64,000 bases of DNA from Methanobacteriota archaeon. GTDB lineage: Archaea; Undinarchaeota; Undinarchaeia; Undinarchaeales; Undinarchaeaceae. Shown piece by piece: positions 11,256 through 56,016 of the stretch. A program made the translations under genes and the position numbers. Below the pieces are notes generated by a model. That model searched no databases and was not told the DNA's origin. It was given only the letters and a program-made list of their open reading frames with translations. The stretch lies in contig NZBN01000007.1 in assembly GCA_002687935.1 (NCBI GenBank), forward strand, positions 5,030-69,029. The letters run 5' to 3'. Within the stretch, counting starts at the first letter, position 1, and each line of letters begins with the position of its first letter.

Positions 11256-11756
11256 TTACAGACCCATAAAAGTCCTTCTAATATGGATTAATTCTTCAAA
11301 GTGAACTGGCACTATTTGTTTTCTCAATTTAAAAACAAAACTATCCTTTACCAGCTCAGGTCCTGTGTATTTCCCCTTGAAATTTACCAATTTCCTCCCT
11401 TTAAACCCATACACAAGCACATTTTTGTCAAGATATTCTTCAATATAGTTTATCTGCGGCCATCCCACTACAATATATTCACTTCCTATTGGAAGTTTCT
11501 CTCCGCCTGCATACATCTCCCATCTGGTACCTTTCCATAATTTAGCCATATCTCCTTCCGGCTTTTCTATAAAATTTTCCAATCGCTCTCCCTTCATTTT
11601 ACGCCAAATCCACATCTTGGAAAGCTGTATAAACTCCTCTCCACACATTTTCACGACACCTTTGTGCAGTGATTTTCCTCTCTTAAAAAGTATAAAATCT
11701 CCTTCTTTTGGAAGCCTTTCAGACGAATCTACCCACTTTAGATATTTTTTAGTCAT
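11256..11756 (-). CDS. Hypothetical protein (basic, possibly an ASCH/PUA-like fold).
   Basis: Clean ORF immediately upstream of thrS on the same strand. No recognisable signature. Confidence 0.45.
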   Translation of the reverse strand: MTKKYLKWVDSSERLPKEGDFILFKRGKSLHKGVVKMCGEEFIQLSKMWIWRKMKGERLENFIEKPEGDMAKLWKGTRWEMYAGGEKLPIGSEYIVVGWPQINYIEEYLDKNVLVYGFKGRKLVNFKGKYTGPELVKDSFVFKLRKQIVPVHFEELIHIRRTFMGL

Positions 11757-12738: not shown

Positions 12739-13566
12739 TCACAACCAGTCAAAAAGACCACTGAGTTTATCTTTCATTTTCTCAAGAAAACCCTTTGCCT
12801 GAGCTTTAGTCTCTTCTTCAGCAGCCTTCTTGGCAAGTTCCTCTACTTTTGTTGAAACCTTATCAGCAATTTCAGTAAGTTTGCTGTTGTCCTGTGTTAC
12901 TTCCTCTGACTGCTTCCATTCTATTGAAAGATTTGAAAATGATTCTTCATCAAGACCGTTGCACACTACGGTTTCTCCTGATACAAGACAGCTATTAGGC
13001 TGGGCATCTGTTATTACTGTTCCTTTTGGAATTGTAAGTGAATAAGATATTGCTCCTATCTTAAGTTCCGAACTTTCTATTACAGTTCTTACTCCGGTTC
13101 CTGTAATATTCCCTATAATGTCTGAGGGCTGTACCCGCAGTTTTCCATCCCCTGCCTTGGAAACTGTTGCACCAGTCTCAAAGGAGACATTCAAAATATA
13201 ATTTGTTTCATAACTTGTCATCTCAAGCCCTTTTCTAAAAATAATTCCTAGCTCAGCAGAGCTAAGTCCTTTATCAAGCTCATAATCACTTGGCATCATA
13301 TTCATTGCCAGTTCTCCATACTGGTCTTTCAGAACAAGATTTCCTATATCTCTCGTTCCGTATTGCATACTGGCTCTTGTAAGCTGTCCTTCGTCGGAAG
13401 CTCCGGCAGAGCATTTAAAATTATATACAATATCTACAAAAAGCCTGTTAGTGTATTCGCTATTTATCCCAATACTCTCTACAGAACAGCGTTCATCAAG
13501 AGCGGCATAAGCCTGTCCTGACAAGACAATTGTGCAAATTAAAATTCCAAAAAAGATTCGCTTCAT
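12739..13566 (-). CDS. Secreted hypothetical protein (signal peptide, C-terminal amphipathic helix).
   Basis: MKRIFFGILICTIVLSGQAYA signal peptide. No known domain. Confidence 0.5.
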   Translation of the reverse strand: MKRIFFGILICTIVLSGQAYAALDERCSVESIGINSEYTNRLFVDIVYNFKCSAGASDEGQLTRASMQYGTRDIGNLVLKDQYGELAMNMMPSDYELDKGLSSAELGIIFRKGLEMTSYETNYILNVSFETGATVSKAGDGKLRVQPSDIIGNITGTGVRTVIESSELKIGAISYSLTIPKGTVITDAQPNSCLVSGETVVCNGLDEESFSNLSIEWKQSEEVTQDNSKLTEIADKVSTKVEELAKKAAEEETKAQAKGFLEKMKDKLSGLFDWL

Positions 13567-13728: not shown

Positions 13729-14220
13729 ATGACTAAGCTTGACGAGAAGGATTGTATAATCCTCAATATGCTACAGGAAAACTGCAGAGTCTCTCTTACA
13801 GATATGGCAAAGCGAGTAGGTCTTTCTGTTGATTCTGTAAAAAAGAGAGTTAAAAAAATGGAGAACTCCAAAATATTCTATCCTCGCGTTCAAATAAGAC
13901 CGCGTCATCTTGGTTTCGAGAACATTGTAGATGTCAAAATAAAACTTCATAATTACACTTCTGACGAACTAAGCGCTTTCGTAAAGTTCCTGAAAGATAA
14001 TCAACAAGTCCCTGAAGTCTTCCTCGTTTCAGGGGAGTGGGATTTGTCTCTAGTTATTATGGCAAAAAACTCTGAAGACCTTGGGGAGCTTACTGCCTCT
14101 ATCAGAAAGCGCTTCGGAAACATAATTAGGGAATGGTCAGAGTCTCTTACGACAATTGCTCATAAGTTCGAGACCTATGACATGCTCGAGCTGATGGGAC
14201 ACAGGAGTGGAAAAGAATAA
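13729..14220 (+). CDS. lrp: Lrp/AsnC family transcriptional regulator, first gene of the nonulosonic-acid operon.
   Basis: N-terminal HTH (ILNMLQENCRVSLTDMAKRVGLS) plus a RAM domain. Its stop overlaps the next ATG by 1 nt (TAATG). Confidence 0.8.
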   Translation: MTKLDEKDCIILNMLQENCRVSLTDMAKRVGLSVDSVKKRVKKMENSKIFYPRVQIRPRHLGFENIVDVKIKLHNYTSDELSAFVKFLKDNQQVPEVFLVSGEWDLSLVIMAKNSEDLGELTASIRKRFGNIIREWSESLTTIAHKFETYDMLELMGHRSGKE

Positions 14221-15155
14221 TGAAATTAATATTTTTCGGACTTGGTTCAATAGGGGAGAGGCAGGCCAGACTTCTTCAGGATAATTTTGAGCACGAGCTC
14301 TATGCTTTCAGGTCAGGAAAAAATTCTGAGAAAAACAAACTCGGTATTAAAGAAGTTCACACTCTAGAGGAAATTGAAAAAATCAATCCTGATGTCGCCT
14401 TTATCACAAATCCGACTAAGCTTCATATCTCAACAGCTCTTCAGTGTGCAGACCAAGGAATGAGCCTTTTCATAGAGAAACCACTTTCGTCAAGCAAAGA
14501 AGATGTTCAGAAGTTAATGGACACAGCAAATTCAAAGAAACTTTCTCTTTATGTCGCATATTGCATGCGCTTTCATCCTGTAATAAAGTGGCTCAAAGAG
14601 CATCTGAAAAACAACAAGCCTCTACATACAAGCGTTATGGTATCTTCCTATCTTCCAAATTGGAGAGAAGGGATTGACCATCTGACTCACTACAGCGCAA
14701 TAAAAGAGTCTGGTGGTGGAGTTCTCTTAGAGCTTTCACACGAGCTGGACTATCTTTACTATCTCTTCGGAACTCCAACTCTGATTGAAGCAGTTTCATC
14801 AAAAGCTGGAAGTGTAACTACTGACGTTGAAGACTTTGCAGATATACTTCTCAGTTTCAGCGGAAATCTTAATTGCAATTTGCATATGAACTTCCTCAGC
14901 AGGCTGGACAGGCGTGAGATGATTCTTGATTTTGAGGATCACACTGTTGTAGCCAACCTTGCAGAAAGTAAAGTAACAATTCTGTCTGACGGGGAAGCTG
15001 AATTAAAGAAATTCGCCTTTGAAAGAGACGACATGTATCTTGAACAGCTCAATTATTTCTTTGACAATCTCAATAATCCTGAAATTATGAACGGTCCTGA
15101 CGAATCTTCCAAGTTTCTGAACACTTTAATGGAAATAAAGGAGGCTGTAAAATGA
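14220..15155 (+). CDS. Gfo/Idh/MocA-family NAD(P) oxidoreductase (PtmF-like).
   Basis: N-terminal Rossmann fold. Sits in the ptmF-ptmB-ptmA-like order. Confidence 0.7.
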   Translation: MKLIFFGLGSIGERQARLLQDNFEHELYAFRSGKNSEKNKLGIKEVHTLEEIEKINPDVAFITNPTKLHISTALQCADQGMSLFIEKPLSSSKEDVQKLMDTANSKKLSLYVAYCMRFHPVIKWLKEHLKNNKPLHTSVMVSSYLPNWREGIDHLTHYSAIKESGGGVLLELSHELDYLYYLFGTPTLIEAVSSKAGSVTTDVEDFADILLSFSGNLNCNLHMNFLSRLDRREMILDFEDHTVVANLAESKVTILSDGEAELKKFAFERDDMYLEQLNYFFDNLNNPEIMNGPDESSKFLNTLMEIKEAVK

Positions 15156-15859
15156 TACTGCTAACAGTCTGTGCTCGAGGCGGTTCAAAAGGAGTAAAAA
15201 ACAAAAATATCCGTGAGATAGCAGGAAAACCGCTTATTGCCCATACTATAGAAGTCGCAAAAAAATGGGGAAAGGCTGACAGAATTGTCTGCTCTACAGA
15301 TTCTGAAGAAATCGCAAAAGCAGCCAGAGATGCCGGAGCTGAAACGCCTTTTATGAGACCTTCTGAGCTTGCAACAGATGAGGTAAGTAAAATGGATGTC
15401 ATAAGGCACGCTGTGGGGGAGGCTGAAAAACAATACGGGGAACGCTATGACCTAATTGTTGATCTTGATGTAACAAGTCCCGTGAGGACTAGCAAAGATT
15501 TGGATTCATGTCTCAAAATATTCCAGGAAAACGAAGTGGACTCGGTTTTCTCTGTTACAAATGCAAGAAAAAGTCCTTATTTCAATATGGTTGAACTAAA
15601 TTCTGATGGCTACGCACACCTTTCCAAAGAGCCTGTATCTCCAATAGTCAGAAGACAGGATGCACCCGAAGTTTATGATATGAATGCATCAATCTACTTT
15701 TACAAAAGGGAATTTCTGATGAATCCGGAAACAGAATCTCCGATGTCAGAAAAGTCAGCAATTTATGTTATGGATGACATTTCCTCTGCGGAAATAGATT
15801 CCGAACTTGACCTGGCATTTCTCGAATTCCTGATTGAAAAAGGAGAGGTATCATTATGA
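15152..15859 (+). CDS. Acylneuraminate cytidylyltransferase family (CMP-nonulosonic acid synthetase, NeuA/LegF/PtmB-like).
   Basis: GGSKGV P-loop-like motif and the CMP-NeuAc synthetase fold. Confidence 0.8.
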   Translation: MILLTVCARGGSKGVKNKNIREIAGKPLIAHTIEVAKKWGKADRIVCSTDSEEIAKAARDAGAETPFMRPSELATDEVSKMDVIRHAVGEAEKQYGERYDLIVDLDVTSPVRTSKDLDSCLKIFQENEVDSVFSVTNARKSPYFNMVELNSDGYAHLSKEPVSPIVRRQDAPEVYDMNASIYFYKREFLMNPETESPMSEKSAIYVMDDISSAEIDSELDLAFLEFLIEKGEVSL

Positions 15860-16635
15860 CGGATTATATGAAAAAATTCAGCCTTGACGGAAAAACTGCC
15901 GCAGTTTTCGGAGGTCTCGGTCTAATTGGAAGGGAAATAGTAAATTCCCTAAGTCAAGCAGGAGCTAAAGTTCTCTTAATAGATATTGATGAGGAACAAG
16001 GACACAAAACTGCTGAAGAACTTGGTGCAGAGTTCATTGAGCTGGATATAACTGATATAGAAAGCTACGATGAAAAAATTTCTTCTATCTGGAAAAAGCA
16101 GGGACAGGTCGATATTGTTGTCAATACTGCATACCCAAGAACTGAAGACTGGGGCGACAAGTTCGAAGATGTAAAGTCAGAATCATGGCGAAAAAATGTT
16201 GATATGCAGATGAATTCCTACTGTCTTCTCACAATAAAATTTGCCGAGTTAATGAAAGAAAATGAAGTCAAAGGAAGTATAATCAATTTAGGTTCAACTT
16301 ATGGAGTTCTTGGAGCAGACTTTGATGTATACAAAGGAACAGATATGACTTGCCCTCCTGCCTATGCAGCGATAAAAGGGGGAATTATAAATTTCTCGAG
16401 GCACGCAGCTTCCTATTACGGAAAACACGGAATCCGTGTTAATGCTCTCTGCCCTGGAGGAATTTTTGACAATCAAAATCCAGAGTTCGTAAAAGCTTAT
16501 GAAAACAAAACTTCCCTTAAAAGAATGGGAAATCCCGAGGAAATCGCATCAGCCGCAGTTTTCCTTGCATCTGACGCTTCTTCATACATAACAGGAACTG
16601 CCTTCATGGTAGACGGCGGGTGGACTAGCATATGA
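15856..16635 (+). CDS. Short-chain dehydrogenase/reductase (PtmA-like).
   Basis: TGxxxGxG cofactor site and a YxxxK active site (YAAIK). Confidence 0.75.
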   Translation: MTDYMKKFSLDGKTAAVFGGLGLIGREIVNSLSQAGAKVLLIDIDEEQGHKTAEELGAEFIELDITDIESYDEKISSIWKKQGQVDIVVNTAYPRTEDWGDKFEDVKSESWRKNVDMQMNSYCLLTIKFAELMKENEVKGSIINLGSTYGVLGADFDVYKGTDMTCPPAYAAIKGGIINFSRHAASYYGKHGIRVNALCPGGIFDNQNPEFVKAYENKTSLKRMGNPEEIASAAVFLASDASSYITGTAFMVDGGWTSI

Positions 16636-17399
16636 GCAAGAAGGCAAGAGTAATCGCAAGACTTGATGTAAAGGGACCTAATGTAATAAAAGGCGTTCAG
16701 CTTGAGTGCCTCCGAATCGTCGGGAAGCCCGGAGAGATGGCGGAGAAATACTATCTACAGGGAGCAGACGAACTCATTTACGTCGATATAGTTGCCAGCC
16801 TCTACGGTCGTGACAATCTTCTCGATATAGTTAACAAGGCATCTGATAAAATTTTCATTCCCTTCACCGTCGGAGGAGGCGTCAGAACTCTTGAGGATAT
16901 CTGTGAGTTTCTAAAAGCGGGTGCAGATAAAGTTGCAATTAATACAGCAATAACAAAAGATCCCGAACTAGTAAAAAAAGGAGCACGAATGTTTGGTTCT
17001 CAGTGCATAGTCGCTTCAATAGAGGCAAGGAAAATCGGCGAAGGTAAGTGGGAAGCGCTTACTGACAATGGTAGAGAAACAACAAGTCTTGATGTTGTAG
17101 AGTGGGCAAAAAAACTTGAATCCCTCGGAGCCGGCGAAATTCTCCTCACTTCCGTAGATATGGAAGGGACTCAGAAAGGTCTCGATACAGAACTTATCCG
17201 CAGTGTTACTGATGTAGTATCAATCCCAGTAATAGCCTGCGGCGGAGCGGGAAATTCTGATGATGTTCTTGACTGTATCAAAAAAGGAAAAACAGACTCA
17301 ATTGCCGTCTCTTCAATATTACACTTTGACAAAGAAACAATCCCTAAAATAAAATCCACACTGAATAATGGCGGAATTGAGGTGAGGACTCTTGACTGA
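16632..17399 (+). CDS. HisF-like cyclase subunit (WbuZ-like), acetamidino-sugar module.
   Basis: HisF (beta/alpha)8 signatures. Lies within a sugar operon, not a his operon. Confidence 0.75.
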   Translation: MSKKARVIARLDVKGPNVIKGVQLECLRIVGKPGEMAEKYYLQGADELIYVDIVASLYGRDNLLDIVNKASDKIFIPFTVGGGVRTLEDICEFLKAGADKVAINTAITKDPELVKKGARMFGSQCIVASIEARKIGEGKWEALTDNGRETTSLDVVEWAKKLESLGAGEILLTSVDMEGTQKGLDTELIRSVTDVVSIPVIACGGAGNSDDVLDCIKKGKTDSIAVSSILHFDKETIPKIKSTLNNGGIEVRTLD

Positions 17400-18069
17400 A
17401 ACTGATGTAAGTATAATTGACTATGGTCTCAACAATCTGAAAAGTGTTTCCAAAGGTTTTGAAAAGATAGGACGAAGTTCTAAAGTCGTTGATACTCCTG
17501 AAGAAGTCCTTTCTGCAAAATGTTTGGTTCTTCCGGGAATTGGCGCATTCGAAGACGGAATGAATGGTCTGAAGAAGAGAGCTCTCATCAATCCAATCAA
17601 GCAAAAAGTCTCTGAAGGAACTCCGTTGTTTGGTATTTGCCTTGGAATGCAGATGCTCTTCACTGAAAGCGAGGAATTCGGGCTTCACAAAGGTCTGGAC
17701 TTGATAAAAGGCAGAGTTATAGCATTCAAGCCTCCGGGAGAGTTGAATCTTGACTGGTATAAAGTTCCCCACATGGGCTGGAATGAGATAATTACTCCGG
17801 AAGCTTCCGACTGGAAGGGAACTTTCCTTGAAGAAACAAAAGAAGAGACAAATGTATACTTCGTTCACTCATTCTACCCAATCCCTGAGGATAAAGGGCT
17901 GATTCTCGCTAATACTGAACACGGGAAGCAGGTTTTTGCTTCTGTTGTAAAAAAAGGAAGCATTATCGGAACACAGTTTCATCCTGAAAAAAGCGGCGAA
18001 GTCGGTTTGGCAATGCTGAAATCTTTCTGTGATATAAACAATATAGGTAAAGGAGGAACAGAAAAATGA
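17392..18069 (+). CDS. HisH-like class I glutamine amidotransferase (WbuY-like).
   Basis: GICLGMQ catalytic Cys and HPEKS motifs. Confidence 0.8.
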   Translation: MTETDVSIIDYGLNNLKSVSKGFEKIGRSSKVVDTPEEVLSAKCLVLPGIGAFEDGMNGLKKRALINPIKQKVSEGTPLFGICLGMQMLFTESEEFGLHKGLDLIKGRVIAFKPPGELNLDWYKVPHMGWNEIITPEASDWKGTFLEETKEETNVYFVHSFYPIPEDKGLILANTEHGKQVFASVVKKGSIIGTQFHPEKSGEVGLAMLKSFCDINNIGKGGTEK

Positions 18070-19295
18070 GTGAAAAACTGGAGGCATATTTCGGTCTTCC
18101 AAATGAGGTTAAATTCTGTACAAGATGCGTAATTTCTAACCAGCGACCCAATTCTTCAATTGAGTTCAAACATACAAGGGAATCAAAGAAAAAAACAATA
18201 AATTTTGACAGCGAGGGTGTCTGCGATGCCTGCAGACATGCAGAAAACAAATACAACAAAATAGACTGGACGAAACGCGAAGAAGAGCTTTACACACTTC
18301 TTGACAAATACAGAAAAAATGACGGCTCCTATGATGTACTTGTTCCGGGGAGTGGTGGCAAGGACAGTGTCTTCGCATCCCATGTCCTCAAGTACAAATA
18401 CGACATGCATCCACTCACTATAACTTGGGCTCCGCATCTCTACACAAACTATGGCTGGGATAATTTCCAGGGATGGATTCACGAAGGAGGTCTAGACAAT
18501 ATGCTATTCACTCCAAATGGAAAAATCCACAGGCTTCTTACAAGACAGGCTTTCAAAAACTTACTCCACCCTTTCCAGCCTTTTATATTCGGTCAAAAGA
18601 ATCTAGCTCCAAAAATTGCTGAAAAGTTTGACATTCCTCTCATTTTCTACGGTGAGAATGAGGCTGAATACGGAAATCCAATACAGGACACATCAACAGC
18701 GGAAAGAGACTGGAAGTATTTTGCTTCCAATGAGCTCGAAAGCACCTATCTCGGCGGAACAAGTATTCAGGACCTTGTTGAAAAACACGGTGTAACGATG
18801 AATGATTTGGATATCTATATGCCTGCGGATCCTAAGATGGTCGAAAAGAAGCAAATAAAAGTCCACTATCTTGGATACTATCTAAAGTGGATTCCTCAGG
18901 ATAACTACTATTATTCTGTTGAACACACAGGCTTCAAACCGAATGACCAGAGAACTGAAGGTACTTATTCGAAATACAATAGTATAGATGATAAAACTGA
19001 TCCCTACCATTACTGGACTACTCTAATAAAATTCGGAATCGGCAGAACAACGTATGATGCGGCTCAGGAAATAAGAAACAATCATATAAACCGTGATGAG
19101 GGCGTCGCATTGGTCAAGAGATTTGATCAGGAATTTCCAACTCGTTATCTCAAGGACTTCCTAGATTACATCAGCATGACTGAGGAAGAGTTCTGGGAGA
19201 CAGCTGACAAATTCCGGTCTCCTCACATTTGGAAGAAGGAAAACGGTGACTGGAAGCTCAGGCACACAGTTTGGAAGGGAGGTACTGACGACTAG
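18066..19295 (+). CDS. N-acetyl sugar amidotransferase (PseA/WbuX/PtmG family PP-loop enzyme).
   Basis: SGGKDS PP-loop and an N-terminal CxxC...CxxC zinc ribbon. Confidence 0.75.
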   Translation: MSEKLEAYFGLPNEVKFCTRCVISNQRPNSSIEFKHTRESKKKTINFDSEGVCDACRHAENKYNKIDWTKREEELYTLLDKYRKNDGSYDVLVPGSGGKDSVFASHVLKYKYDMHPLTITWAPHLYTNYGWDNFQGWIHEGGLDNMLFTPNGKIHRLLTRQAFKNLLHPFQPFIFGQKNLAPKIAEKFDIPLIFYGENEAEYGNPIQDTSTAERDWKYFASNELESTYLGGTSIQDLVEKHGVTMNDLDIYMPADPKMVEKKQIKVHYLGYYLKWIPQDNYYYSVEHTGFKPNDQRTEGTYSKYNSIDDKTDPYHYWTTLIKFGIGRTTYDAAQEIRNNHINRDEGVALVKRFDQEFPTRYLKDFLDYISMTEEEFWETADKFRSPHIWKKENGDWKLRHTVWKGGTDD

Positions 19296-20416
19296 TGATA
19301 AAAATAAGAGATCGCGAACTTGGAACTGAAAAACCTGTCTATATAATTGCAGAAGCAGGTGTTAATCATAATGGAAGTATTGAACTCGCAAAGAAACTAG
19401 TTGATGCAGCTGCAGAAGCAGGTGCGGATGCTGTAAAATTCCAGACCTTCAGAGCCGAGCTTATTGTGACTGAAGATGCAGACAAGGCAGAGTATCAGAA
19501 AAAAGATTCAGATGAAAGCCAGTTCAACATGCTCAGGAATCTGGAACTTTCAGATGAAGATTTCATGGAGCTGAAAGAGTACTGCAATACTAAGAAGGTA
19601 GAATTTCTCTCAACACCACATTCAGGTGAGTGGAGTGTTAATCTTCTGGAAGAGCTCGGAATCTCTGCATATAAAATTGGTTCAGGGGACCTCACAAATA
19701 TACCTCTACTCAAATATATCGCAAAACTTGGTAAGCCTGTTATAATTTCCACTGGAATGGCGACTCTGGACGAGATAGAGGAAGCAAAGGAGTCAATAAA
19801 TTCAGAGGGAAATGATAATTTAATTGTACTTCACTGTACCACAATGTACCCCTGCCCTGAAGGAAAGGTCAACCTGAGGGCGATGCAGACAATTCTGGAA
19901 AAGACAGAAAATCTTGTAGGTTATTCGGATCATACAAATTCAATAGAGGCCTCAATAATTGCAACCTGCCTTGGTGCTTCTCTCATAGAAAAACACTTTA
20001 CACTTGACCAGGATATGCCTGGTCCTGACCATGCGTCTTCAATTGAACCTGACGAGCTTGAAGAGCTCATAAGAGCTATTCGCTTTGTCCGTAAAAATAA
20101 CATACAAAATCCCTCAGAGGCTTTTGACGCTCTCAACAGCCAGGGCTACTCATTGAATTCCAGTCTAATCGAAACAATATTAGGAAGTCCTGAAAAAGTT
20201 CCTGACGAAAAAGAGCTAGAAATATCAAAAGTAGCAAGAAAGAGCATAGTCGCAAGGAAATACATAAAATCTGGAGAGGAACTTACAAGCAAAAATATTG
20301 GAATTCTTCGACCAGGCGAGGGTCTTCATCCTCGGCACTTCCCAGAGCTTCTTGGAAAACAAGTAGTTCGTGATATAAAGAAAAACGAATATCTTCTCCT
20401 GGAGGATGTAAAATGA
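19295..20416 (+). CDS. Nonulosonic acid synthase (NeuB/LegI/PseI family) with C-terminal SAF domain.
   Basis: N-terminal TIM-barrel NeuB motifs (IIAEAGVNHNGS). Confidence 0.85.
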   Translation: MIKIRDRELGTEKPVYIIAEAGVNHNGSIELAKKLVDAAAEAGADAVKFQTFRAELIVTEDADKAEYQKKDSDESQFNMLRNLELSDEDFMELKEYCNTKKVEFLSTPHSGEWSVNLLEELGISAYKIGSGDLTNIPLLKYIAKLGKPVIISTGMATLDEIEEAKESINSEGNDNLIVLHCTTMYPCPEGKVNLRAMQTILEKTENLVGYSDHTNSIEASIIATCLGASLIEKHFTLDQDMPGPDHASSIEPDELEELIRAIRFVRKNNIQNPSEAFDALNSQGYSLNSSLIETILGSPEKVPDEKELEISKVARKSIVARKYIKSGEELTSKNIGILRPGEGLHPRHFPELLGKQVVRDIKKNEYLLLEDVK

Positions 20417-21546
20417 GAAAAATACTTTATGTCACTGGGAGTCGGGCAGAATATGGTCTTATGCAGTCAAGTCTTAAACTAATTGACAGCGATTCCGAAC
20501 TTGACCTACATATCGTGGCAACTGGAATGCACCTTATGCCAGAATTCGGAAACACAATCACTGATGTGGAGCACGACGGATTCAAACTTCATACAATTGA
20601 TTCAATTTATTCAGATGACAGCAAGGAAGCAATGGCACACTTTGCCGGAGAATTCCTCTCAAAATTTGTAGATGCTCTTAAAAAAATAAATCCGGATATA
20701 ATTCTTCTTCTTGGGGACCGTGCTGAGATGCTCTCAGCTGCAGTTGCAGGTGCTTATATGTCAATTCCTGTAGCACATATTCACGGAGGAGATGTAAGTT
20801 CAACAGTGGATGAAATGGCAAGGCACGCTATAACAAAACTCTCTGAAATTCATTTCGCTGCAACAGAATCAAGCGCTGAGAGAATAAGGAAGATGGGGGA
20901 ACTCCCGTTTAATATACATCTTGTCGGTGCTCCTGGTTTGGATTCAATACTTAATGATATTCTTCCTTCAAAAGAAGAAGTTTTCAAAAGCCTCGGACTG
21001 AATTCTTCTGAAAAAACAGTCCTAATTGTCCAGCACCCAATTACTCTTGAGGATGGAAAATCTGAAGAGCATATGAGGGCAACTCTTGAAGCTGTAAAAG
21101 AGGAAGGGTTTCAGGTTATTGTTGTTTATCCTAACGCAGATGCCGGAGGTCGGGAAATGATAAGTGTCATCGAAGAGTATGAAGGAACTTTCAATATTTT
21201 TAAAAGCATGGAACGGTCACTTTTCCTCAGCCTTATGAAGAACTCAGATTTAATTATTGGAAACTCAAGCTCGGCTCTGATAGAGGCGCCTTCCTTTGGA
21301 ACTCCTGCTGTCAATATAGGTTCTCGGCAGAGTGGAAGAGAGCAGTCTGACAATATAATTGATTCAGGGTATAAGAAAGATGAAATAATCTCTGCAATCA
21401 AAAAAGCACTTTCTCCTGAGTTCATTAAAAAAGCAGAAAAGTGCGAAAATCCATATGGCGACGGAAAGTCAGGAGAGCGCATAGTAAAAATACTAAAAGA
21501 GGTGGAGCTTGGTAGGGAACTTCTTGACAAGAAAATAGCATACTAA
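20413..21546 (+). CDS. UDP/GDP-N-acetylglucosamine 2-epimerase, hydrolysing (NeuC/LegG-like).
   Basis: Epimerase_2 fold with the typical N-terminus (YVTGSRAEYG). Confidence 0.8.
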   Translation: MRKILYVTGSRAEYGLMQSSLKLIDSDSELDLHIVATGMHLMPEFGNTITDVEHDGFKLHTIDSIYSDDSKEAMAHFAGEFLSKFVDALKKINPDIILLLGDRAEMLSAAVAGAYMSIPVAHIHGGDVSSTVDEMARHAITKLSEIHFAATESSAERIRKMGELPFNIHLVGAPGLDSILNDILPSKEEVFKSLGLNSSEKTVLIVQHPITLEDGKSEEHMRATLEAVKEEGFQVIVVYPNADAGGREMISVIEEYEGTFNIFKSMERSLFLSLMKNSDLIIGNSSSALIEAPSFGTPAVNIGSRQSGREQSDNIIDSGYKKDEIISAIKKALSPEFIKKAEKCENPYGDGKSGERIVKILKEVELGRELLDKKIAY

Positions 21547-21944
21547 TGGAAAAAGACGACAGATTTGATGAATGGAAGCCTCCTAAGATAAAGGACGGAG
21601 AACTCACTAAGTGGAATTGGATGGTTCAGAATGTGGAAGGTCTAAAACTCGGGAAGAAGACAGATATTGGAGTCTTCACTTACATAAATGCAAAACACGG
21701 CGTTGAAATACAGGACAATGTACAGATTGGCTCACACTGTTCAATTTATTCAGAATCTACAATTGACGAAAAATCCGGAAAAGTGATAATCGGAGAAAAT
21801 GCCAGAATAGGTTCTCACAGTCTGATAATGCCAGGAGTTATAATTGGAAAAAATGCAGTCATCGGGGCATTTTCCTTTGTTACAACTGATGTGCCTGACA
21901 ATTCTCTTGCATACGGAATTCCTGCAAAGGTGGTTAAAAAATAA
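21546..21944 (+). CDS. Hexapeptide-repeat (LbH) sugar N-acetyltransferase (LegH/PglD-like, short form).
   Basis: Isoleucine-patch hexapeptide repeats. Confidence 0.65.
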   Translation: MEKDDRFDEWKPPKIKDGELTKWNWMVQNVEGLKLGKKTDIGVFTYINAKHGVEIQDNVQIGSHCSIYSESTIDEKSGKVIIGENARIGSHSLIMPGVIIGKNAVIGAFSFVTTDVPDNSLAYGIPAKVVKK

Positions 21945-23081
21945 ATGAAAGTCCCTCTCTTCAAGACTTATTGGAATCAGGAAGACATAGAGTCAGTGAA
22001 AGCGGTAATCGAGCGAGGTACTTATTGGGCAACCGGTCCTGAAATAGAAGAATTTGAGAAGGAAATTGCCGAGTTCGTTGGAGCAAAATACTGCCTGGCT
22101 TTTAATTCCGGAACGTCGGCTCTCCATACACTCTTACTGGCTCATGATGTAAAGGAAAAAGAAGTCATAATTCCGTCTTTCACATTCATTGCAACAGCAA
22201 ACGCTGTCGTACTCGCCGGAGGAATTCCGGTTTTTGCAGAAACAGAAGCAGAAACCTACGGTCTCGACGCAGAAGATGTAGAATCACGCATTACAGAGAA
22301 GACTGCCGCAATATTAAATCTGGATTTTGGAGGATTCCCTGCAAGAGACCACGAAAAACTCAGAGAAATTGCAGACCGTCATAATATCCTTTACATAGGA
22401 GATTCAGCCGAGTCCCTCGGTTCAAAAACGAAGGGAAAATTACTCGGTTCAATTGCGGATTCTACAATTTTCAGTTTCTGTCAAAATAAAGTTGTCAGCA
22501 CAGGAGAAGGCGGTGTTCTTATCACTAATGATGAATCAGTTTATGAAAAATCAAAACTCATTCGTTCCCACGGACGTGTAGAGTTAGCTGAGGATTATTT
22601 CTCAAGTACAGAAGACAATGACTACATTCAAATCGGCTACAATTACAGAATGCCGACAATGTGCGCAGCTCTCGGACTTTCTCAAATGAAGAAAATTTCT
22701 GAAAACATTAAAATGCGAAGGTCTAATGCAGACTTTCTGAATGAAGGTCTTGGAAAAATCGAGCAGGTAAAAACCCCGACACTCATCGAAGGCGATTTCC
22801 AGGTTTATCAGATGTATACAATTCAACTTCCGAACCAGGAAACCAGAGATGCTCTTCAGAGTCATCTTACTGAGCAGGGAATTAGTACAAAAGTTTATTT
22901 CAATCCAGTTCATCTCAAAACAGTTTACAAAAATATGGGTTGTTCAGAAGGGGACCTACCCAAAACCGAGACACTCTCTGGAAAGGTTCTAACACTTCCA
23001 ATGCATCCATCACTTACTGAGGCTGAAATGGAGTATATAATAAATTCAGTGGAGGATTTTTTCAAAAATGTCGAAGCTTGA
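21945..23081 (+). CDS. DegT/DnrJ/EryC1-family PLP-dependent sugar aminotransferase (LegC/PseC-like).
   Basis: Class IV-fold aminotransferase motifs. Confidence 0.8.
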   Translation: MKVPLFKTYWNQEDIESVKAVIERGTYWATGPEIEEFEKEIAEFVGAKYCLAFNSGTSALHTLLLAHDVKEKEVIIPSFTFIATANAVVLAGGIPVFAETEAETYGLDAEDVESRITEKTAAILNLDFGGFPARDHEKLREIADRHNILYIGDSAESLGSKTKGKLLGSIADSTIFSFCQNKVVSTGEGGVLITNDESVYEKSKLIRSHGRVELAEDYFSSTEDNDYIQIGYNYRMPTMCAALGLSQMKKISENIKMRRSNADFLNEGLGKIEQVKTPTLIEGDFQVYQMYTIQLPNQETRDALQSHLTEQGISTKVYFNPVHLKTVYKNMGCSEGDLPKTETLSGKVLTLPMHPSLTEAEMEYIINSVEDFFKNVEA

Positions 23082-24468
23082 GGATATGTTAATAGACCAG
23101 TCAACTTCCATAAAGGAGGCAATGCGGATTATAGACAGAGCCGGAGTAAGAATGGCTCTTATTGTCGATGACAATCAAAAATTAAAGGGGATAGTTACTG
23201 ACGGAGATATACGGAGAGGAATAATTAAAGGAGCCGGAAACGAGGACGAAGTTTCAACTGTCATGAATAAAGCTCCATTAACTACAAAAGAGAATGTTCC
23301 TCACCAAGATGTTTTGGATTTACTCAAGACTAATAAGGTTCTAGGAATCCCAGTTCTTTCAGAAAGCGGAGAAATTATTGATATGCTTCTTCTGGAAGGA
23401 AATGAGGTTCTCTCATACACAAAACACGAAATAGAAAAGAAGCACCTAAGAAAAATACTCGTCATCGGTGGAGCCGGATATATCGGCTCCGTTCTTGTCA
23501 GAAAGCTTCTTGACAAAGGATACAAAGTAAAAATTCTCGACAATTTCCTCTATGGGGATGAGTCTTTATCCTCAATAGAATCTGACGAGCTCACACTTCT
23601 CGAAGGGGACACCAGACATATAGAAGATGTTACAGAAGCCGTCCAGGATGTTGATGCTGTTGTTCACCTTGCTGAGCTTGTAGGTGATCCTGCTTCAAAT
23701 CTAAATCCAAAATTTACCCAGGATATAAACTACCTTGCAACACGTAATGTTGCCTCTGTCTGCAAACACTTCCACCTCAATAGGCTGGTATATGCTTCAT
23801 CTTGCAGCGTTTACGGAGCATCAGAAGAAGGAAAGCTCCTTACAGAGGAATCCTCTCTCAATCCTGTTTCTCTTTATGCTAAAATGAAGATAAGCTCTGA
23901 GAAAGCCCTTGTTGAAATGAAGGATGACAGTTTCAGACCGACAATTCTGAGACTGGGAACTGTTTTCGGTCCTTCACCACGCCCAAGATTTGACCTTGTC
24001 GTTAATCTTCTCACTGCAAAGGCTGTAAGAGACGGAAAAATAACAATTTTCGGTGGAGATCAGTGGCGTCCGAATGTTCACGTTGAGGACGTTGCCGAAT
24101 CTATTATTTCTGTATTGGAAGCCCCTCTTGATAAAGTAGGTGGAGAGGTTTTCAATGTCGGGTCAGAGAAAAATAACCATACTATAAATGAGCTTGGAAA
24201 TTTTGTCAAAGGAAAGGTTCCTTCTGCAGAACTAATAATAGAAGAAAAAGATGTTGACAAAAGGGATTACAAAGTAGATTTCACAAAACTCCGCGAAGGT
24301 CTTGAACTGAGCCTGGAAAGAACTGTGGATGAAGGAATATCAGGAATAATTTCCTTCCTGGAAGACAACAAAGATATCAATTACGAAGATTCAAAATACA
24401 GTAATGTCAAATTCCTCGAACAGGGAAAGCTAACAGAATTCTTTTCCAACGGGGATACAAAAACATAA
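23068..24468 (+). CDS. Tandem CBS domains fused to an NAD-dependent sugar-nucleotide 4,6-dehydratase/epimerase (LegB/PseB-like).
   Basis: N-terminal ~120 aa CBS pair, then a GGAGYIGS Rossmann motif and YAKMK catalytic dyad. Confidence 0.75.
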   Translation: MSKLEDMLIDQSTSIKEAMRIIDRAGVRMALIVDDNQKLKGIVTDGDIRRGIIKGAGNEDEVSTVMNKAPLTTKENVPHQDVLDLLKTNKVLGIPVLSESGEIIDMLLLEGNEVLSYTKHEIEKKHLRKILVIGGAGYIGSVLVRKLLDKGYKVKILDNFLYGDESLSSIESDELTLLEGDTRHIEDVTEAVQDVDAVVHLAELVGDPASNLNPKFTQDINYLATRNVASVCKHFHLNRLVYASSCSVYGASEEGKLLTEESSLNPVSLYAKMKISSEKALVEMKDDSFRPTILRLGTVFGPSPRPRFDLVVNLLTAKAVRDGKITIFGGDQWRPNVHVEDVAESIISVLEAPLDKVGGEVFNVGSEKNNHTINELGNFVKGKVPSAELIIEEKDVDKRDYKVDFTKLREGLELSLERTVDEGISGIISFLEDNKDINYEDSKYSNVKFLEQGKLTEFFSNGDTKT

Positions 24469-30937: not shown

Positions 30938-31050
30938 ATTATCACTATGTATGGTCTCTCTTTAAATCCTTCTTTTATCAAACTCAAGAATTTAATTCAT
31001 TTAATTGCCTAAGGCAAAGTATTTTTAAAAGAGCGCTTTACCGTGATAGT

Positions 31051-32232: not shown

Positions 32233-32233
32233 C

Positions 32234-53446: not shown

Positions 53447-53455
53447 AAGGGTTTA

Positions 53456-53518: not shown

Positions 53519-53588
53519 CTTTTAGGTTCTTTTTATCACTTATAAATGTGCTGGAAAGTCTTAAGTAGAATCAAACTAAATTTCCTAT

Positions 53589-54229: not shown

Positions 54230-54267
54230 ATATTTCCAGTGACACTGTATAAGAATTCTGAAATACG

Positions 54268-55990: not shown

Positions 55991-56016
55991 AACCATTAAT
56001 TTTGGTTCATTGGCAT

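What the first reader, a model, noticed from the sequence alone, without database searches (positions are those of the whole stretch)
16632..19295. HisF-like/HisH-like/PseA-like amidotransferase trio predicts an acetamidino-modified sugar
An imidazole-glycerol-phosphate-synthase-like pair (cyclase + glutaminase) is embedded in a sugar operon next to a PP-loop N-acetyl sugar amidotransferase. This is the WbuX/WbuY/WbuZ-type arrangement used in bacteria to convert an N-acetyl group to an N-acetimidoyl group (as in FucNAm or the Am-modified pseudaminic/legionaminic acids such as Pse5Ac7Am and Leg5Am7Ac). It predicts that the archaeal product is an acetamidino nonulosonic acid.
Basis: inference. 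Interest (0 to 1): 0.55.

Follow-up and report, generated by a model that had tools for sequence, protein, structure and literature searches.

The report
Acetamidino sugar enzyme trio in archaeon
Three overlapping genes in a tiny marine DPANN archaeon (Undinarchaeales) encode sugar-pathway copies of the histidine enzymes HisF and HisH plus an ATP-dependent amidotransferase; together they most likely turn an N-acetyl group of a legionaminic-acid-type (sialic-acid-like) sugar into an acetamidino group, which is a well-known bacterial arrangement, so the finding is correct but ordinary.

Summary
Windows 16632-17399, 17392-18069 and 18066-19295 (+) are three translationally coupled ORFs:
- a HisF-like barrel;
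- a HisH-like glutaminase;
- an N-acetyl sugar amidotransferase (NASAT/WbuX), 62% identical to the crystallised Legionella pneumophila enzyme 8WEX, with its PP-loop, Zn-Cys4 motif and 'lid' insert.

They sit inside a complete legionaminic-acid-type operon (ptmF-legF-ptmA-[trio]-legI-legG-legH-legC-legB equivalents, 14220-24468).

The HisF-like protein is not a histidine enzyme.
- It falls in a separate clade from canonical HisF (Arg9, Glu130, Glu176 in place of Cys9, Asp130, Asp176). The ammonia-gate residues are intact.
- All 7 sampled relatives lie beside a NASAT, a glutaminase, NeuB and a CMP-transferase.
- No other his gene lies in the 64 kb.
- The host lineage, Ca. Undinarchaeota (about 0.62 Mb genomes), is reported to lack amino-acid biosynthesis.

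The backbone stereochemistry and the N5 position are inferred, not shown.

This is a new member of a known kind (WbuXYZ, WbpG/HisH2/HisF2, AglXYZ, PtmG). Interest is modest: a DPANN symbiont with about 700 genes keeps a 12-gene zwitterionic-sugar operon that the phylum's description paper does not mention in its main text.

The parts
13729..14220 (+). Lrp/AsnC-family regulator at the head of the operon (possible regulator of the cluster)
   Evidence: PF13404, PF13412 and PF01037 hits. A 58%-identical Lrp gene also lies next to the HisF-like gene in the Woesearchaeote locus L005. Conserved at 91-93% in sister species.
14220..15155 (+). GFO/IDH/MocA oxidoreductase, PtmF-like
   Evidence: PF01408 and PF22725. 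A GFO gene occupies the same position in L006 and lies beside the HisF-like gene in L009. PtmF is described as an oxidoreductase adjacent to LegF and PtmA in the proven P. shigelloides Leg cluster.
15152..15859 (+). CMP-nonulosonate synthetase (LegF/NeuA-like cytidylyltransferase)
   Evidence: PF02348 CTP_transf_3, E=1.7e-23. TIGR03584 PseF scores 136 bits, below its cut-off of 205.7. A CTP_transf_3 gene is present in all 7 sampled loci.
15856..16635 (+). Short-chain dehydrogenase, PtmA-like
   Evidence: PF13561, E=2e-47. NF050062 FlagModPtmA scores 153.5 bits, below its cut-off of 350. 60% identical to the gene at the same position in L006.
16632..17399 (+). HisF-like (beta/alpha)8 barrel of the sugar-associated paralog clade (HisF2/WbuZ/AglZ-like); proposed ammonia conduit and docking partner of the amidotransferase
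   Evidence: PF00977, E=1.9e-63. It scores below the curated cut-offs of hisF (278.6<294.55), WbuZ (268.7<299.7) and AglZ_HisF2 (192<310). In T. maritima numbering it has R9, E130, E176, S128 and N144; the gate residues R5/E46/K99/E167 and D98 are intact. It falls in the paralog clade of the tree.
17392..18069 (+). HisH-like class-I glutamine amidotransferase (glutaminase subunit)
   Evidence: PF00117, E=2e-21. TIGR01855, 197 bits > 105. The Cys in GICLGMQ and the His/Glu in QFHPEKS align with the corresponding motifs of T. maritima HisH. Its 8 nearest sequences (43-60% identity) are all sugar-locus or HisF->HisH-fusion types; canonical HisH reaches at most 38%.
18066..19295 (+). N-acetyl sugar amidotransferase (NASAT; WbuX/WbpG/PtmG/PseA family), Legionella 'long-lid' subtype
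   Evidence: TIGR03573, 388.5 bits > 203.2. 8WEX, E=8e-178, 61.6% identity. PP-loop 96-SGGKDS-101 and Cys18/21/53/56. 31-residue spacer between the CxxC pairs, as in LpNASAT. NCBI records name the identical protein 'N-acetyl sugar amidotransferase' or 'LPS biosynthesis protein PseA'.
19295..20416 (+). Nonulosonate synthase (NeuB/LegI-like)
   Evidence: PF03102, E=2e-89, plus a SAF domain. TIGR03569 NeuB_NnaB, 424 > 399.65; PseI, 277 < 340.
20413..21546 (+). Hydrolysing NDP-sugar 2-epimerase (NeuC/LegG-like)
   Evidence: PF02350, E=1.4e-88. TIGR03568 NeuC_NnaA, 440.6 > 235.9.
21546..21944 (+). Short hexapeptide-repeat N-acetyltransferase (LegH/NeuD-like)
   Evidence: PF00132 Hexapep. TIGR03570 NeuD, 68.7 bits, below its cut-off. 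69% identical to the gene in L005.
21945..23081 (+). DegT-type sugar aminotransferase (LegC/PseC-like)
   Evidence: TIGR03588 PseC, 282.5 bits, and TIGR04181 LegC family, 228.7 bits; both below their cut-offs. PF01041.
23068..24468 (+). CBS-pair fused to an NDP-sugar 4,6-dehydratase/epimerase (LegB-like)
   Evidence: GalE, dTDP-glucose dehydratase and LegB family hits over residues 128-436; a KpsF C-terminal (CBS) hit over residues 9-106. PF00571 CBS, PF01370 and PF02719.

Best explanation
The three genes encode a three-part, glutamine- and ATP-dependent amidotransferase. It converts an acetamido group (CH3-C(=O)-NH-) of a legionaminic-acid-type nonulosonic acid into an acetamidino group (CH3-C(=NH)-NH-). 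The rest of the operon makes and CMP-activates that sugar.

Proposed mechanism:
1. The HisH-like subunit hydrolyses glutamine with its Cys-His-Glu triad.
2. The ammonia enters the HisF-like barrel through the conserved Arg5/Glu46/Lys99/Glu167 gate and leaves at the remodelled 'catalytic' face. The cyclase residues there have been replaced: Arg9, Glu130 and Glu176.
3. The PP-loop/Zn-Cys4 amidotransferase docks on the HisF-like protein. It activates the acetamido carbonyl with ATP (to AMP + PPi), and ammonia displaces the activated oxygen to give the amidine.

The most likely substrate and product are CMP-Leg5Ac7Ac and CMP-Leg5Am7Ac, or an epimer. The product is a net-neutral (zwitterionic) sugar destined for a surface glycan of this DPANN archaeon.

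Shown by the sequence: the motifs, the clade placement, the operon and the conserved neighbourhood.
Shown experimentally in homologous systems: NASAT is needed for the acetamidino group, and HisF2 binds WbpG.
Inferred: the order of steps, the adenylation chemistry, the CMP-level substrate, the N5 position and the Leg stereochemistry.
For: Amidotransferase identity:
- TIGR03573, 388.5 bits > 203.2.
- 61.6% identity to L. pneumophila NASAT 8WEX, including the PP-loop, the four Zn-binding Cys and the 31-residue lid. All 120 top homologs share the lid.
- Legionella's O-antigen is 5-acetamidino-7-acetamido legionaminic acid. Its ORF28, homologous to ptmG, is held to convert CMP-Leg5Ac7Ac to CMP-Leg5Am7Ac.
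- PtmG generates the Am form, which predominates among the CMP-NulOs detected in the nucleotide-sugar pool.

HisF-like protein as a sugar paralog:
- 120/120 closest homologs have E130 and E176, and 119/120 have R9; the gate residues and D98 are intact.
- Among 150 diverse representatives, 25/25 his-pathway fusions have C9+D130, and 20/20 HisF->HisH fusions have R/K9 and no Asp130.
- One tree branch separates the two types, with 39/50 bootstraps.

HisH-like protein:
- The HisH motifs carrying the catalytic Cys, His and Glu are present. Its nearest sequences are sugar-type.

Conserved module:
- 7/7 sampled loci from Woesearchaeota, Helarchaeota, Leptospira and other bacteria carry HisF-like + GATase + NASAT + NeuB + CTP_transf_3.
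- The operon is conserved at 80-95% identity in two sister Undinarchaeales species.

Coupling:
- Overlapping stop and start codons.
- HisF->HisH fusions exist in this clade.
- A physical HisF2-WbpG interaction was shown by pull-down in P. aeruginosa.
- Deleting the archaeal homolog MMP1081 removes the acetamidino group of ManNAc3NAmA.

Not histidine synthesis:
- No hisA/B/C/D/G/I gene in the 64 kb.
- Undinarchaeota lack amino-acid biosynthesis genes.

Leg-type backbone:
- NeuC and NeuB reach their equivalog cut-offs, and a dehydratase, aminotransferase and acetyltransferase are present.
- The PtmF-LegF-PtmA adjacency matches the proven P. shigelloides Leg cluster.
Against: - Nothing biochemical exists for this organism, and no glycan structure is known for any Undinarchaeote.
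- The HisF-like protein scores below the curated cut-offs of both sugar-type models (WbuZ, AglZ/HisF2), so it is not an equivalog of either.
- The LegB-, LegC-, LegF-, LegH- and PtmA-like genes all score below their equivalog cut-offs. The Leg assignment therefore rests on pathway logic and synteny.
- NASAT family members act on different sugars: FucNAc, ManNAc3NAcA, Pse and Leg. Am-modified UDP-HexNAc has also been seen, so the substrate is not proven.
- No nonulosonate transferase or oligosaccharyltransferase was found among the window ORFs scanned, so the acceptor is unknown.
- In M. maripaludis, deleting the HisH homolog MMP1082 gave no visible flagellin shift. The glutaminase may therefore be dispensable when ammonia is plentiful.
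Confidence: 0.8

Rival explanations
1. Ordinary histidine biosynthesis: the HisF/HisH pair is the imidazole glycerol phosphate synthase of the cell and only happens to lie in a sugar operon.
For: - The hisF model TIGR00735 gives the top NCBIfam score, 278.6 bits.
- The protein is about 50% identical to canonical HisF structures.
- NCBI records name it 'imidazole glycerol phosphate synthase subunit HisF'.
- D11, K19 and most phosphate-site residues are retained.
Against: - The score is below the hisF curated cut-off of 294.55.
- Catalytic Asp130 is Glu, and Asp176 is Glu, in all 120 close homologs.
- The protein sits in a separate clade from every his-pathway fusion and every crystallised HisF.
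- No other his gene lies in the 64 kb.
- Undinarchaeota lack amino-acid biosynthesis.
- 7/7 relatives lie in NeuB/NASAT clusters.
Confidence: 0.02
2. The trio amidinates a different N-acetyl sugar, not the nonulosonic acid. Candidates are a UDP-hexosamine derivative, as for WbuX (FucNAm) or WbpG/AglX (ManNAc3NAmA), or a pathway intermediate such as the 2,4-diacetamido-trideoxyhexose.
For: - Characterised NASATs act on several sugar types.
- The only archaeal precedent, MMP1081, modifies a mannuronic acid derivative.
- Am-modified UDP-HexNAc has been observed.
- Gene adjacency does not fix the substrate.
Against: - 61.6% identity, plus the shared lid insert, to the Legionella enzyme of a Leg5Am7Ac pathway. 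LpNASAT's authors say this lid is missing from WbuX, WbpG and the M. maripaludis homolog.
- All long-lid enzymes sampled (L007-L011) lie next to NeuB and a CMP-transferase.
- No second sugar pathway is present in the window.
Confidence: 0.1
3. Same chemistry but a different product in detail: the amidine is on N7 rather than N5, or the backbone is a Leg epimer (4-epi or 8-epi) or carries further changes made by the GFO and SDR oxidoreductases.
For: - Stereochemistry and regiochemistry cannot be read from sequence.
- Two extra oxidoreductases lie in the operon.
- The LegB- and LegC-like genes score well below their equivalog cut-offs.
- Campylobacter has both Pse and Leg Am forms.
Against: - The closest characterised relative works in a 5-acetamidino Leg pathway.
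- The GFO-LegF-SDR triple is a standard part of proven Leg clusters, where PtmA and PtmF are assigned to precursor supply rather than epimerisation.
- NeuC is present, and no ORF matched a PseG or PseH model, which argues against Pse.
Confidence: 0.2
4. The amidotransferase works alone with free ammonia, and the HisH/HisF-like pair is an accessory needed only under ammonia limitation, or a relic.
For: - Deleting the HisH homolog MMP1082 gave no visible flagellin shift in M. maripaludis.
- LpNASAT was crystallised on its own as a stable dimer.
Against: - The trio is kept intact in a roughly 0.62 Mb, 700-gene genome and in sister species at 87-95% identity.
- The catalytic triad and gate residues are conserved.
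- Deleting the HisF homolog MMP1083 did give smaller flagellins.
- HisF2 binds WbpG.
- The trio is present in 7/7 loci.
Confidence: 0.08

Closest known systems
Legionella pneumophila N-acetyl sugar amidotransferase (LpNASAT, PDB 8WEX; LPS-locus ORF28, homologous to ptmG)
   Same: - 61.6% identical over 385 residues.
- Same PP-loop (SGGKDS), the same four Zn-binding cysteines and the same 31-residue lid between the CxxC pairs.
- Lies beside NeuA/B/C-type genes of a legionaminic acid pathway.
   Different: - Bacterial O-antigen homopolymer versus an unknown archaeal glycan.
- LpNASAT has a longer N-terminus.
- I did not verify whether Legionella's locus carries hisH/hisF-like partners; neither term occurs in the main text of PMC3766260.
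Pseudomonas aeruginosa O5 WbpG with HisH2/HisF2
   Same: - Same three-protein logic.
- HisF2 and HisH2 are proposed to deliver ammonia to WbpG, and HisF2-WbpG binding was shown by pull-down.
- WbpG is a NASAT family member.
   Different: - The substrate is a UDP-mannuronic acid derivative (ManNAc3NAmA), not a nonulosonic acid.
- WbpG belongs to the NASATs that LpNASAT's authors describe as lacking the lid.
Escherichia coli O145 WbuX/WbuY/WbuZ
   Same: - The name-giving trio of amidotransferase, HisH-like and HisF-like proteins.
- The window NASAT passes the WbuX model TIGR03573.
   Different: - It makes L-FucNAm.
- The window HisF-like protein scores 268.7 bits, below the WbuZ equivalog cut-off of 299.7.
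Methanococcus maripaludis MMP1081-1083 (AglX/AglY/AglZ)
   Same: - The archaeal precedent: deleting MMP1081 (a WbpG homolog) removes the acetamidino group from the archaellin N-glycan, and deleting MMP1083 also gives smaller flagellins.
- NCBIfam has an 'AglZ/HisF2 family acetamidino modification protein' model.
   Different: - The sugar is ManNAc3NAmA6Thr, not a nonulosonic acid.
- The window HisF-like protein scores only 192 bits against the 310 cut-off of the AglZ model.
- By LpNASAT's authors' account, the M. maripaludis NASAT lacks the lid.
Campylobacter jejuni PtmG (Cj1324) / PseA and the ptm/leg locus
   Same: - PtmG converts the acetamido form of the CMP-linked sugar into the acetimidoyl form.
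- The ptmF-legF-ptmA, legI, legG, legH, legC and legB gene set corresponds to the window operon.
   Different: - Flagellin O-glycosylation in a bacterium.
- Sequence identity to PtmG and PseA was not measured here.
- In bacteria the CBS pair is fused to the nucleotidyltransferase PtmE; here it is fused to the dehydratase.
Canonical imidazole glycerol phosphate synthase HisH/HisF
   Same: - Same folds, at about 50% identity to the HisF-LUCA reconstruction.
- Same ammonia-gate residues, and the same HisH motifs carrying the catalytic Cys, His and Glu.
   Different: - Arg9, Glu130, Glu176, Val53, Leu56 and Tyr57 replace Cys9, Asp130, Asp176, Thr53, Val56 and Glu57 on the catalytic face.
- Separate clade.
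- No his-operon context.

Membership tests
N-acetyl sugar amidotransferase (NASAT; TIGR03573 WbuX subfamily) | Profile score above the curated cut-off | tested here: met
   388.5 bits against a cut-off of 203.2, covering residues 15-380 of 409.
N-acetyl sugar amidotransferase (NASAT; TIGR03573 WbuX subfamily) | PP-loop SGGxDS (ATP pyrophosphatase signature) | tested here: met
   96-SGGKDS-101, identical to LpNASAT 122-SGGKDS-127. Present in 120/120 top homologs.
N-acetyl sugar amidotransferase (NASAT; TIGR03573 WbuX subfamily) | Tetracysteine motif CxxC...CxxC (Zn site) | tested here: met
   Cys18, 21, 53 and 56 align with Zn-binding Cys44, 47, 79 and 82 of LpNASAT.
N-acetyl sugar amidotransferase (NASAT; TIGR03573 WbuX subfamily) | ATP-dependent replacement of the acetamido oxygen by NH | not testable with these tools
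   An enzymatic property. Even for LpNASAT it is inferred from structure only.
Legionella-type 'long-lid' NASAT subtype | Insert of about 15 residues between the two CxxC pairs (LpNASAT residues 55-69) | tested here: met
   The spacer is 31 residues in the window, LpNASAT, L007, L008 and 120/120 top hits, against 16 in L005 and L006.
WbuZ equivalog (TIGR03572) / AglZ-HisF2 equivalog (NF038364) | Profile score above the curated cut-off | tested here: not met
   WbuZ 268.7 < 299.7; AglZ_HisF2 192.1 < 310. I therefore file it in the broader sugar-associated HisF paralog clade, not as an equivalog of either model.
Sugar-associated HisF paralog clade (HisF2/WbuZ/AglZ-like, as delimited here) | Branches apart from canonical HisF; Arg/Lys at position 9 (T. 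maritima numbering) | tested here: met
   One NJ branch holds all 63 canonical sequences, and the window lies on the other side; 39/50 bootstraps. R9 in the window and in 119/120 close homologs.
Sugar-associated HisF paralog clade (HisF2/WbuZ/AglZ-like, as delimited here) | Encoded next to a glutaminase and a NASAT | tested here: met
   True in the window, in 7/7 sampled loci and in L015.
Sugar-associated HisF paralog clade (HisF2/WbuZ/AglZ-like, as delimited here) | Ammonia gate (R5, E46, K99, E167) and HisH-contact Asp98 retained | tested here: met
   Conserved in the window and in 119-120 of 120 homologs.
Sugar-associated HisF paralog clade (HisF2/WbuZ/AglZ-like, as delimited here) | Physical complex with the NASAT and channelling of ammonia | not testable with these tools
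   Shown only for P. aeruginosa HisF2-WbpG by pull-down. No multimer prediction is available here.
Canonical HisF (TIGR00735, imidazole glycerol phosphate synthase cyclase subunit) | Profile score above the curated cut-off | tested here: not met
   278.6 < 294.55.
Canonical HisF (TIGR00735, imidazole glycerol phosphate synthase cyclase subunit) | Catalytic Asp11 and Asp130 | tested here: not met
   Asp11 is kept, but position 130 is Glu ('SIEARK' against 'AIDAKR'). All 63 canonical sequences have Asp130.
Canonical HisF (TIGR00735, imidazole glycerol phosphate synthase cyclase subunit) | Other histidine-pathway genes in the genome or neighbourhood | tested here: not met
   None in the 64 kb window. 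The phylum is reported to lack amino-acid biosynthesis genes.
HisH-type class-I glutaminase (TIGR01855) | Profile score above the cut-off, and a Cys-His-Glu triad | tested here: met
   197.3 > 105.4. GICLGMQ and QFHPEKS align with the corresponding T. maritima HisH motifs. The model does not separate histidine-type from sugar-type copies. Nearest neighbours are sugar-type.
Legionaminic acid biosynthesis cluster | NeuB/LegI-type synthase and NeuC/LegG-type hydrolysing 2-epimerase | tested here: met
   TIGR03569, 424.1 > 399.65; TIGR03568, 440.6 > 235.9; the PseI model is below its cut-off (277 < 340).
Legionaminic acid biosynthesis cluster | LegB, LegC, LegH, LegF and PtmA equivalog-level matches | tested here: not met
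   LegB family 89.5 < 475; LegC family 228.7 < 420; NeuD 68.7 < 160.8; PseF 136 < 205.7; PtmA 153.5 < 350. The enzyme classes are present, but not at equivalog level.
Legionaminic acid biosynthesis cluster | PtmF-LegF-PtmA (oxidoreductase, cytidylyltransferase, SDR) adjacency | tested here: met
   GFO-CTP_transf_3-SDR at 14220-16635. The same three gene types are adjacent in the experimentally proven P. shigelloides Leg cluster.
Legionaminic acid biosynthesis cluster | D-glycero-D-galacto configuration of the product | not testable with these tools
   Needs NMR or chromatographic standards.

The most novel reading that the evidence does not exclude
The HisF-like barrel is not just an ammonia pipe. 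Its former cyclase face has been rebuilt with near-invariant residues across the close homologs: Arg9, Glu130, Glu176 and Asn144, with Val53, Leu56 and Tyr57 across the wider clade. It still keeps Asp11, Lys19 and one phosphate-binding site.

This face could form a composite active site with the amidotransferase, for example by holding the phosphate of the CMP-sugar or helping deprotonate ammonium. Two points fit this reading. In M. maripaludis the HisF homolog appears to be needed while the glutaminase is not. And a genome of about 700 genes with no histidine pathway keeps the pair.

The resulting zwitterionic Leg5Am sugar would then be a surface determinant used by Undinarchaeota to attach to their hosts.
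Probability: 0.15. Interest if true: 0.55.

Novelty: new member of a known kind. Interest (0 to 1): 0.3.

Why it matters
For annotation:
- Public records label this HisF-like gene 'imidazole glycerol phosphate synthase subunit HisF'. That could wrongly credit DPANN, CPR and other reduced genomes with part of a histidine pathway.
- A simple residue test separates the two types: Cys9/Asp130 in histidine enzymes, Arg or Lys at 9 and usually Glu or Gln at 130 in sugar enzymes.

For biology:
- Marine Undinarchaeales have about 0.62 Mb and 700 genes and lack amino-acid and vitamin synthesis.
- They nevertheless keep a 12-gene operon for an acetamidino nonulosonic acid, conserved at 80-95% identity between species.
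- The amidine makes an otherwise acidic sugar net neutral. This predicts a distinctive surface glycan that could matter for host contact.
- So far only an N-formyl legionaminic acid has been demonstrated in Archaea.

The value lies in annotation and in a testable glycan prediction, not in a new principle.

Tried and rejected
1. The genome-contig scan with the HisF-like protein returned only 7 loci, all close relatives. It could not be used to look for a second, canonical hisF in an Undinarchaeales genome, so 'no other his genes' rests on the 64 kb window and on PMC7414124.
2. The literature search for AglX/AglY/AglZ did not reach the primary 2012 paper. I relied on a 2010 review that cites unpublished data. 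From memory only, and unverified, the aglY phenotype appears only under ammonia limitation.
3. The HisH subunit gives a weaker phylogenetic signal. Only the 8 nearest sequences are cleanly sugar-type; below about 38% identity the two types interleave. I therefore did not claim a HisH clade.
4. I considered the downstream genes 24829-28701 as part of the sugar pathway (an alternative N-acyl donor). These are the ATP-grasp beta subunit, a 224-aa unknown, a class-I aminotransferase and the acyl-CoA synthetase alpha subunit. I set them aside as more likely amino-acid fermentation genes. They lie after a 360-bp gap, but they stay adjacent in sister species, so this is not settled.
5. NCBIfam scans of ten unannotated ORFs found nothing useful: no glycosyltransferase and no NulO transferase.
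6. Recent horizontal transfer was considered. GC of the trio (0.41-0.43) matches the window (0.407), so there is no compositional sign of it. The mixed bacterial and archaeal neighbours do suggest older transfers, which I did not resolve.
7. Structure prediction and fold search were not used. A 62%-identical crystal structure and canonical HisF/HisH structures already fix the folds, and no multimer prediction is offered.

Full report
**What is there.** The coordinates of the finding correspond exactly to three ORFs on the + strand: 16632-17399 (255 aa), 17392-18069 (225 aa, TTG start) and 18066-19295 (409 aa).
- The first ORF is a His_biosynth (beta/alpha)8 barrel (PF00977, E=1.9e-63).
- The second is a class-I glutamine amidotransferase (PF00117, E=2e-21; TIGR01855 HisH, 197 bits against a cut-off of 105).
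- The third has no Pfam domain but matches the NCBIfam WbuX 'N-acetyl sugar amidotransferase' model at 388.5 bits against a cut-off of 203.
- The junctions overlap and have GGAGG-like motifs upstream: ATGA at SDR/hisF and at hisH/NASAT; the hisH TTG lies 8 nt before the hisF stop; TAGTG at NASAT/neuB. The genes are therefore translationally coupled. Independent gene calls on metagenome contigs give the same boundaries.

**The surrounding operon.** From 13729 to 24468 the + strand carries, in order:
- an Lrp/AsnC regulator;
- a GFO/IDH/MocA oxidoreductase;
- a CMP-sugar cytidylyltransferase;
- a PtmA-like SDR;
- the trio;
- NeuB (TIGR03569, 424>399.65);
- NeuC (TIGR03568, 440>235.9);
- a short hexapeptide acetyltransferase;
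- a DegT aminotransferase;
- a CBS-fused 4,6-dehydratase.

This is the full enzyme set of the legionaminic acid route: dehydratase, aminotransferase, N-acetyltransferase, hydrolysing 2-epimerase, synthase and CMP-activation. The PseI model is below its cut-off, and no ORF matched a PseG or PseH model. The oxidoreductase-cytidylyltransferase-SDR triple matches the PtmF-LegF-PtmA adjacency of the experimentally proven Plesiomonas shigelloides Leg cluster. The LegB-, LegC-, LegH-, LegF- and PtmA-like genes are all below equivalog cut-offs, so the 'Leg' label rests on pathway logic and synteny, not on one-to-one orthology.

**The amidotransferase.** The 409-aa protein matches one solved structure, 8WEX, at E=8e-178 and 61.6% identity over 385 positions. 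8WEX is the L. pneumophila N-acetyl sugar amidotransferase (LpNASAT).
- The paper describing it defines the family by a PP-loop SGGxDS and a Zn-binding tetracysteine motif, and infers ATP-to-AMP+PPi chemistry.
- The window protein has 96-SGGKDS-101 and Cys18/21/53/56, which align with the Zn ligands.
- The paper also notes a disordered lid (residues 55-69) that it says is missing from the other family members it aligned (WbuX, WbpG, the M. maripaludis and Campylobacter homologs).
- The window enzyme has this insert: a 31-residue spacer between the CxxC pairs. So do 120/120 of its best homologs and the enzymes of loci L007 and L008, whereas L005 and L006 have a 16-residue spacer.
- Legionella's O-antigen is 5-acetamidino-7-acetamido legionaminic acid. 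Its ORF28, homologous to ptmG, is held to convert CMP-Leg5Ac7Ac to CMP-Leg5Am7Ac.
- PtmG produces the Am form that predominates among the CMP-NulOs of the Campylobacter nucleotide-sugar pool.

**Is the HisF-like gene a histidine gene?** NCBIfam alone is ambiguous: hisF 278.6 (cut-off 294.55), WbuZ 268.7 (299.7) and AglZ/HisF2 192 (310) are all below cut-off. I therefore tested it in four ways.

1. Residues. I aligned it with T. maritima, P. aerophilum and T. thermophilus HisF (sequences).
   - The window protein and its 120 closest homologs (57-100% identity) keep the ammonia gate (R5, E46, K99, E167), the HisH-contact Asp98, and Asp11 and Lys19.
   - They have Glu for catalytic Asp130 (120/120), Glu for Asp176 (120/120), Arg for Cys9 (119/120), Ser128 (117/120) and Asn144 (120/120).

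2. Architecture as an independent label. I used the 150 diverse representatives from the exhaustive search.
   - All 25 proteins fused to HisA or fused as HisH-HisF have Cys9+Asp130. These must be histidine enzymes.
   - All 20 HisF->HisH fusions have Arg/Lys9 and no Asp130. Their domain order is the gene order of the sugar module.

3. Tree. A neighbour-joining tree of 133 sequences and 250 columns puts all 63 canonical sequences on one side of a single branch and the window on the other, with 39/50 bootstraps.
   - The positions that best separate the clades are C9, T53, V56, E57, L222, D28, D130, G15, R16, N25 and G144.
   - From my knowledge of the T. maritima structure, these lie in beta-1, loop 1, the beta2-alpha2 loop and beta-5, that is, on the catalytic face. 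This placement is my inference and was not measured here.

4. Context. Seven relatives were sampled across 57-71% HisF identity or 64-68% NASAT identity: a Woesearchaeote, a Helarchaeote, Leptospira adleri and four other contigs.
   - All carry HisF-like + GATase + NASAT + NeuB + CTP_transf_3. None carries his genes.
   - L006 repeats the window's GFO-cytidylyltransferase-SDR-HisF-HisH-NASAT order.

The HisH-like protein aligns at the HisH motifs that carry the catalytic Cys, His and Glu. Its eight nearest sequences are sugar-type (43-60% identity) and canonical HisH reaches at most 38%, but the signal fades at lower identity.

- The window is archaeal: it has Nop5, fibrillarin, diphthamide synthase and mevalonate-pathway genes.
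- Its proteins fall in clusters of at least 90% identity with Candidatus Undinarchaeum marinum and other Undinarchaeales MAGs.
- Two sister species carry the whole operon at 80-95% identity, and the NASAT is the most conserved gene.
- Undinarchaeota are DPANN archaea. [quoted passage not shown]
- None of hisA/B/C/D/G/I is in the 64 kb; only histidyl-tRNA synthetase is present.
- These are therefore probably the only hisH/hisF-like genes of the genome, yet histidine synthesis is excluded.
- I could not search a whole genome (one search returned only close relatives).

**How it most likely works.**
1. The HisH-like subunit hydrolyses glutamine.
2. Ammonia passes through the conserved gate and barrel of the HisF-like subunit.
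3. The NASAT, docked on that subunit, activates the acetamido carbonyl with ATP, and ammonia displaces the oxygen to give the amidine.

Support from homologous systems:
- HisF2 binds WbpG in a pull-down, and the ammonia-delivery idea is stated explicitly.
- Deleting M. maripaludis MMP1081 removes the acetamidino group. Deleting the HisF homolog MMP1083, but not the HisH homolog MMP1082, gives smaller flagellins.
- HisF->HisH fusions and the overlapping genes fit a complex.

The adenylation chemistry, the CMP-level substrate, the N5 position and the Leg configuration are inferences from the closest characterised relatives.

**Comparison and novelty.**
- The arrangement is the known WbuX/Y/Z, WbpG/HisH2/HisF2, AglX/Y/Z and PtmG/PseA type. 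NCBI records already name the third gene 'N-acetyl sugar amidotransferase'.
- An archaeal acetamidino precedent exists for a hexuronic acid. An archaeal legionaminic acid precedent exists for the N-formyl form.
- New here is the combination in a DPANN lineage. The main text of the phylum's description paper contains none of the terms sialic, legionaminic, pseudaminic, glycosyl, surface, polysaccharide, S-layer or nucleotide sugar, and its supplement only lists a NeuD-like hit.
- A clear residue rule also separates sugar-type from histidine-type HisF.
- I rate it a new member of a known kind, with modest interest.

**Open points.**
- No nonulosonate transferase, oligosaccharyltransferase or acceptor was found in the window.
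- The roles of the GFO and SDR enzymes are taken from the Campylobacter and Plesiomonas literature only.
- It is unsettled whether the downstream acyl-CoA synthetase and aminotransferase genes belong to the pathway.
- It is unknown whether the rebuilt face of the HisF-like barrel does more than dock the NASAT.

Noticed in passing
window 24829-28701 (+): An ADP-forming acyl-CoA synthetase is split into a beta (ATP-grasp_5, 216 aa) gene and an alpha (460 aa) gene. Between them lie a 224-aa ORF with no family match and a class-I aminotransferase. The block follows the sugar operon after a 360-bp gap that holds a 79-aa DUF1761-like ORF. It stays adjacent in sister species L012 and L013. It is probably amino-acid fermentation, but an alternative N-acyl donor role is not excluded.
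   Followed up: partly
window 23068-24468 (+): The LegB-like 4,6-dehydratase carries an N-terminal CBS pair (residues about 9-106). In the bacterial loci L007-L010 the CBS pair is fused to the PtmE-like nucleotidyltransferase instead. The window has no PtmE-like gene in the operon; a GlmU-like NTP-transferase/hexapeptide gene lies far away at 41460-42683.
   Followed up: no
loci L005, L006 versus L007, L008 and the window: Two NASAT subtypes (16-residue versus 31-residue spacer between the CxxC pairs) both pair with the same E130-type HisF-like protein in NeuB clusters. The subunits do not co-vary: window HisF is 69-71% identical to L005/L006 but its NASAT only 48-49%, whereas for L007/L008 the values are 57-61% (HisF) and 60-62% (NASAT). 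This suggests module shuffling.
   Followed up: partly
representative proteins P0172-P0321: Many sugar-type HisF-like proteins are fused to the glutaminase in the order HisF->HisH (20 of 150), the reverse of the canonical HisH->HisF fusion (10 of the 25 his-pathway fusions). In the wider paralog clade, position 130 is Glu (43), Gln (9) or still Asp (7) of 67, so Glu130 marks the window's subclade while Arg/Lys9 marks the whole clade.
   Followed up: partly
window 28729-30216 (+): A 495-aa protein with a single MG2 (alpha-2-macroglobulin) domain and no other match lies directly after the acyl-CoA synthetase gene. It could be a surface protein and a glycan acceptor candidate.
   Followed up: no
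window 52460-57919 (+): A run of isoprenoid genes: two GHMP kinases, an amino-acid-kinase-fold gene (isopentenyl phosphate kinase-like), an FMN-dependent dehydrogenase-fold gene (IDI2-like) and a UbiA prenyltransferase. This is notable in a lineage described as metabolically reduced. I did not check it against the phylum paper.
   Followed up: no
window 30931-33577 (+): An M20 peptidase is followed by a 455-aa ORF whose only match is a weak N-terminal hit to YbdK/GshA-like carboxylate-amine ligases (27.5 bits, far below the cut-off).
   Followed up: no
window 11256-11756, 12739-13566, 35847-36389, 36469-37098, 47685-48164, 49181-50836, 51583-52113, 53885-54229, 62960-63988: Nine ORFs of 114-551 aa have no Pfam match. 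The seven of them that were also scanned against NCBIfam have no match there either; 47685-48164 and 53885-54229 were scanned against Pfam only. They include a 551-aa ORF at 49181-50836.
   Followed up: no
public annotations of the window's HisF-like protein (P0121 and relatives): NCBI and JGI records name this sugar-type protein 'imidazole glycerol phosphate synthase subunit HisF' or 'cyclase', including in Woesearchaeota, Parcubacteria and Omnitrophica MAGs. Automated metabolic reconstructions may therefore score a partial histidine pathway where there is none.
   Followed up: partly
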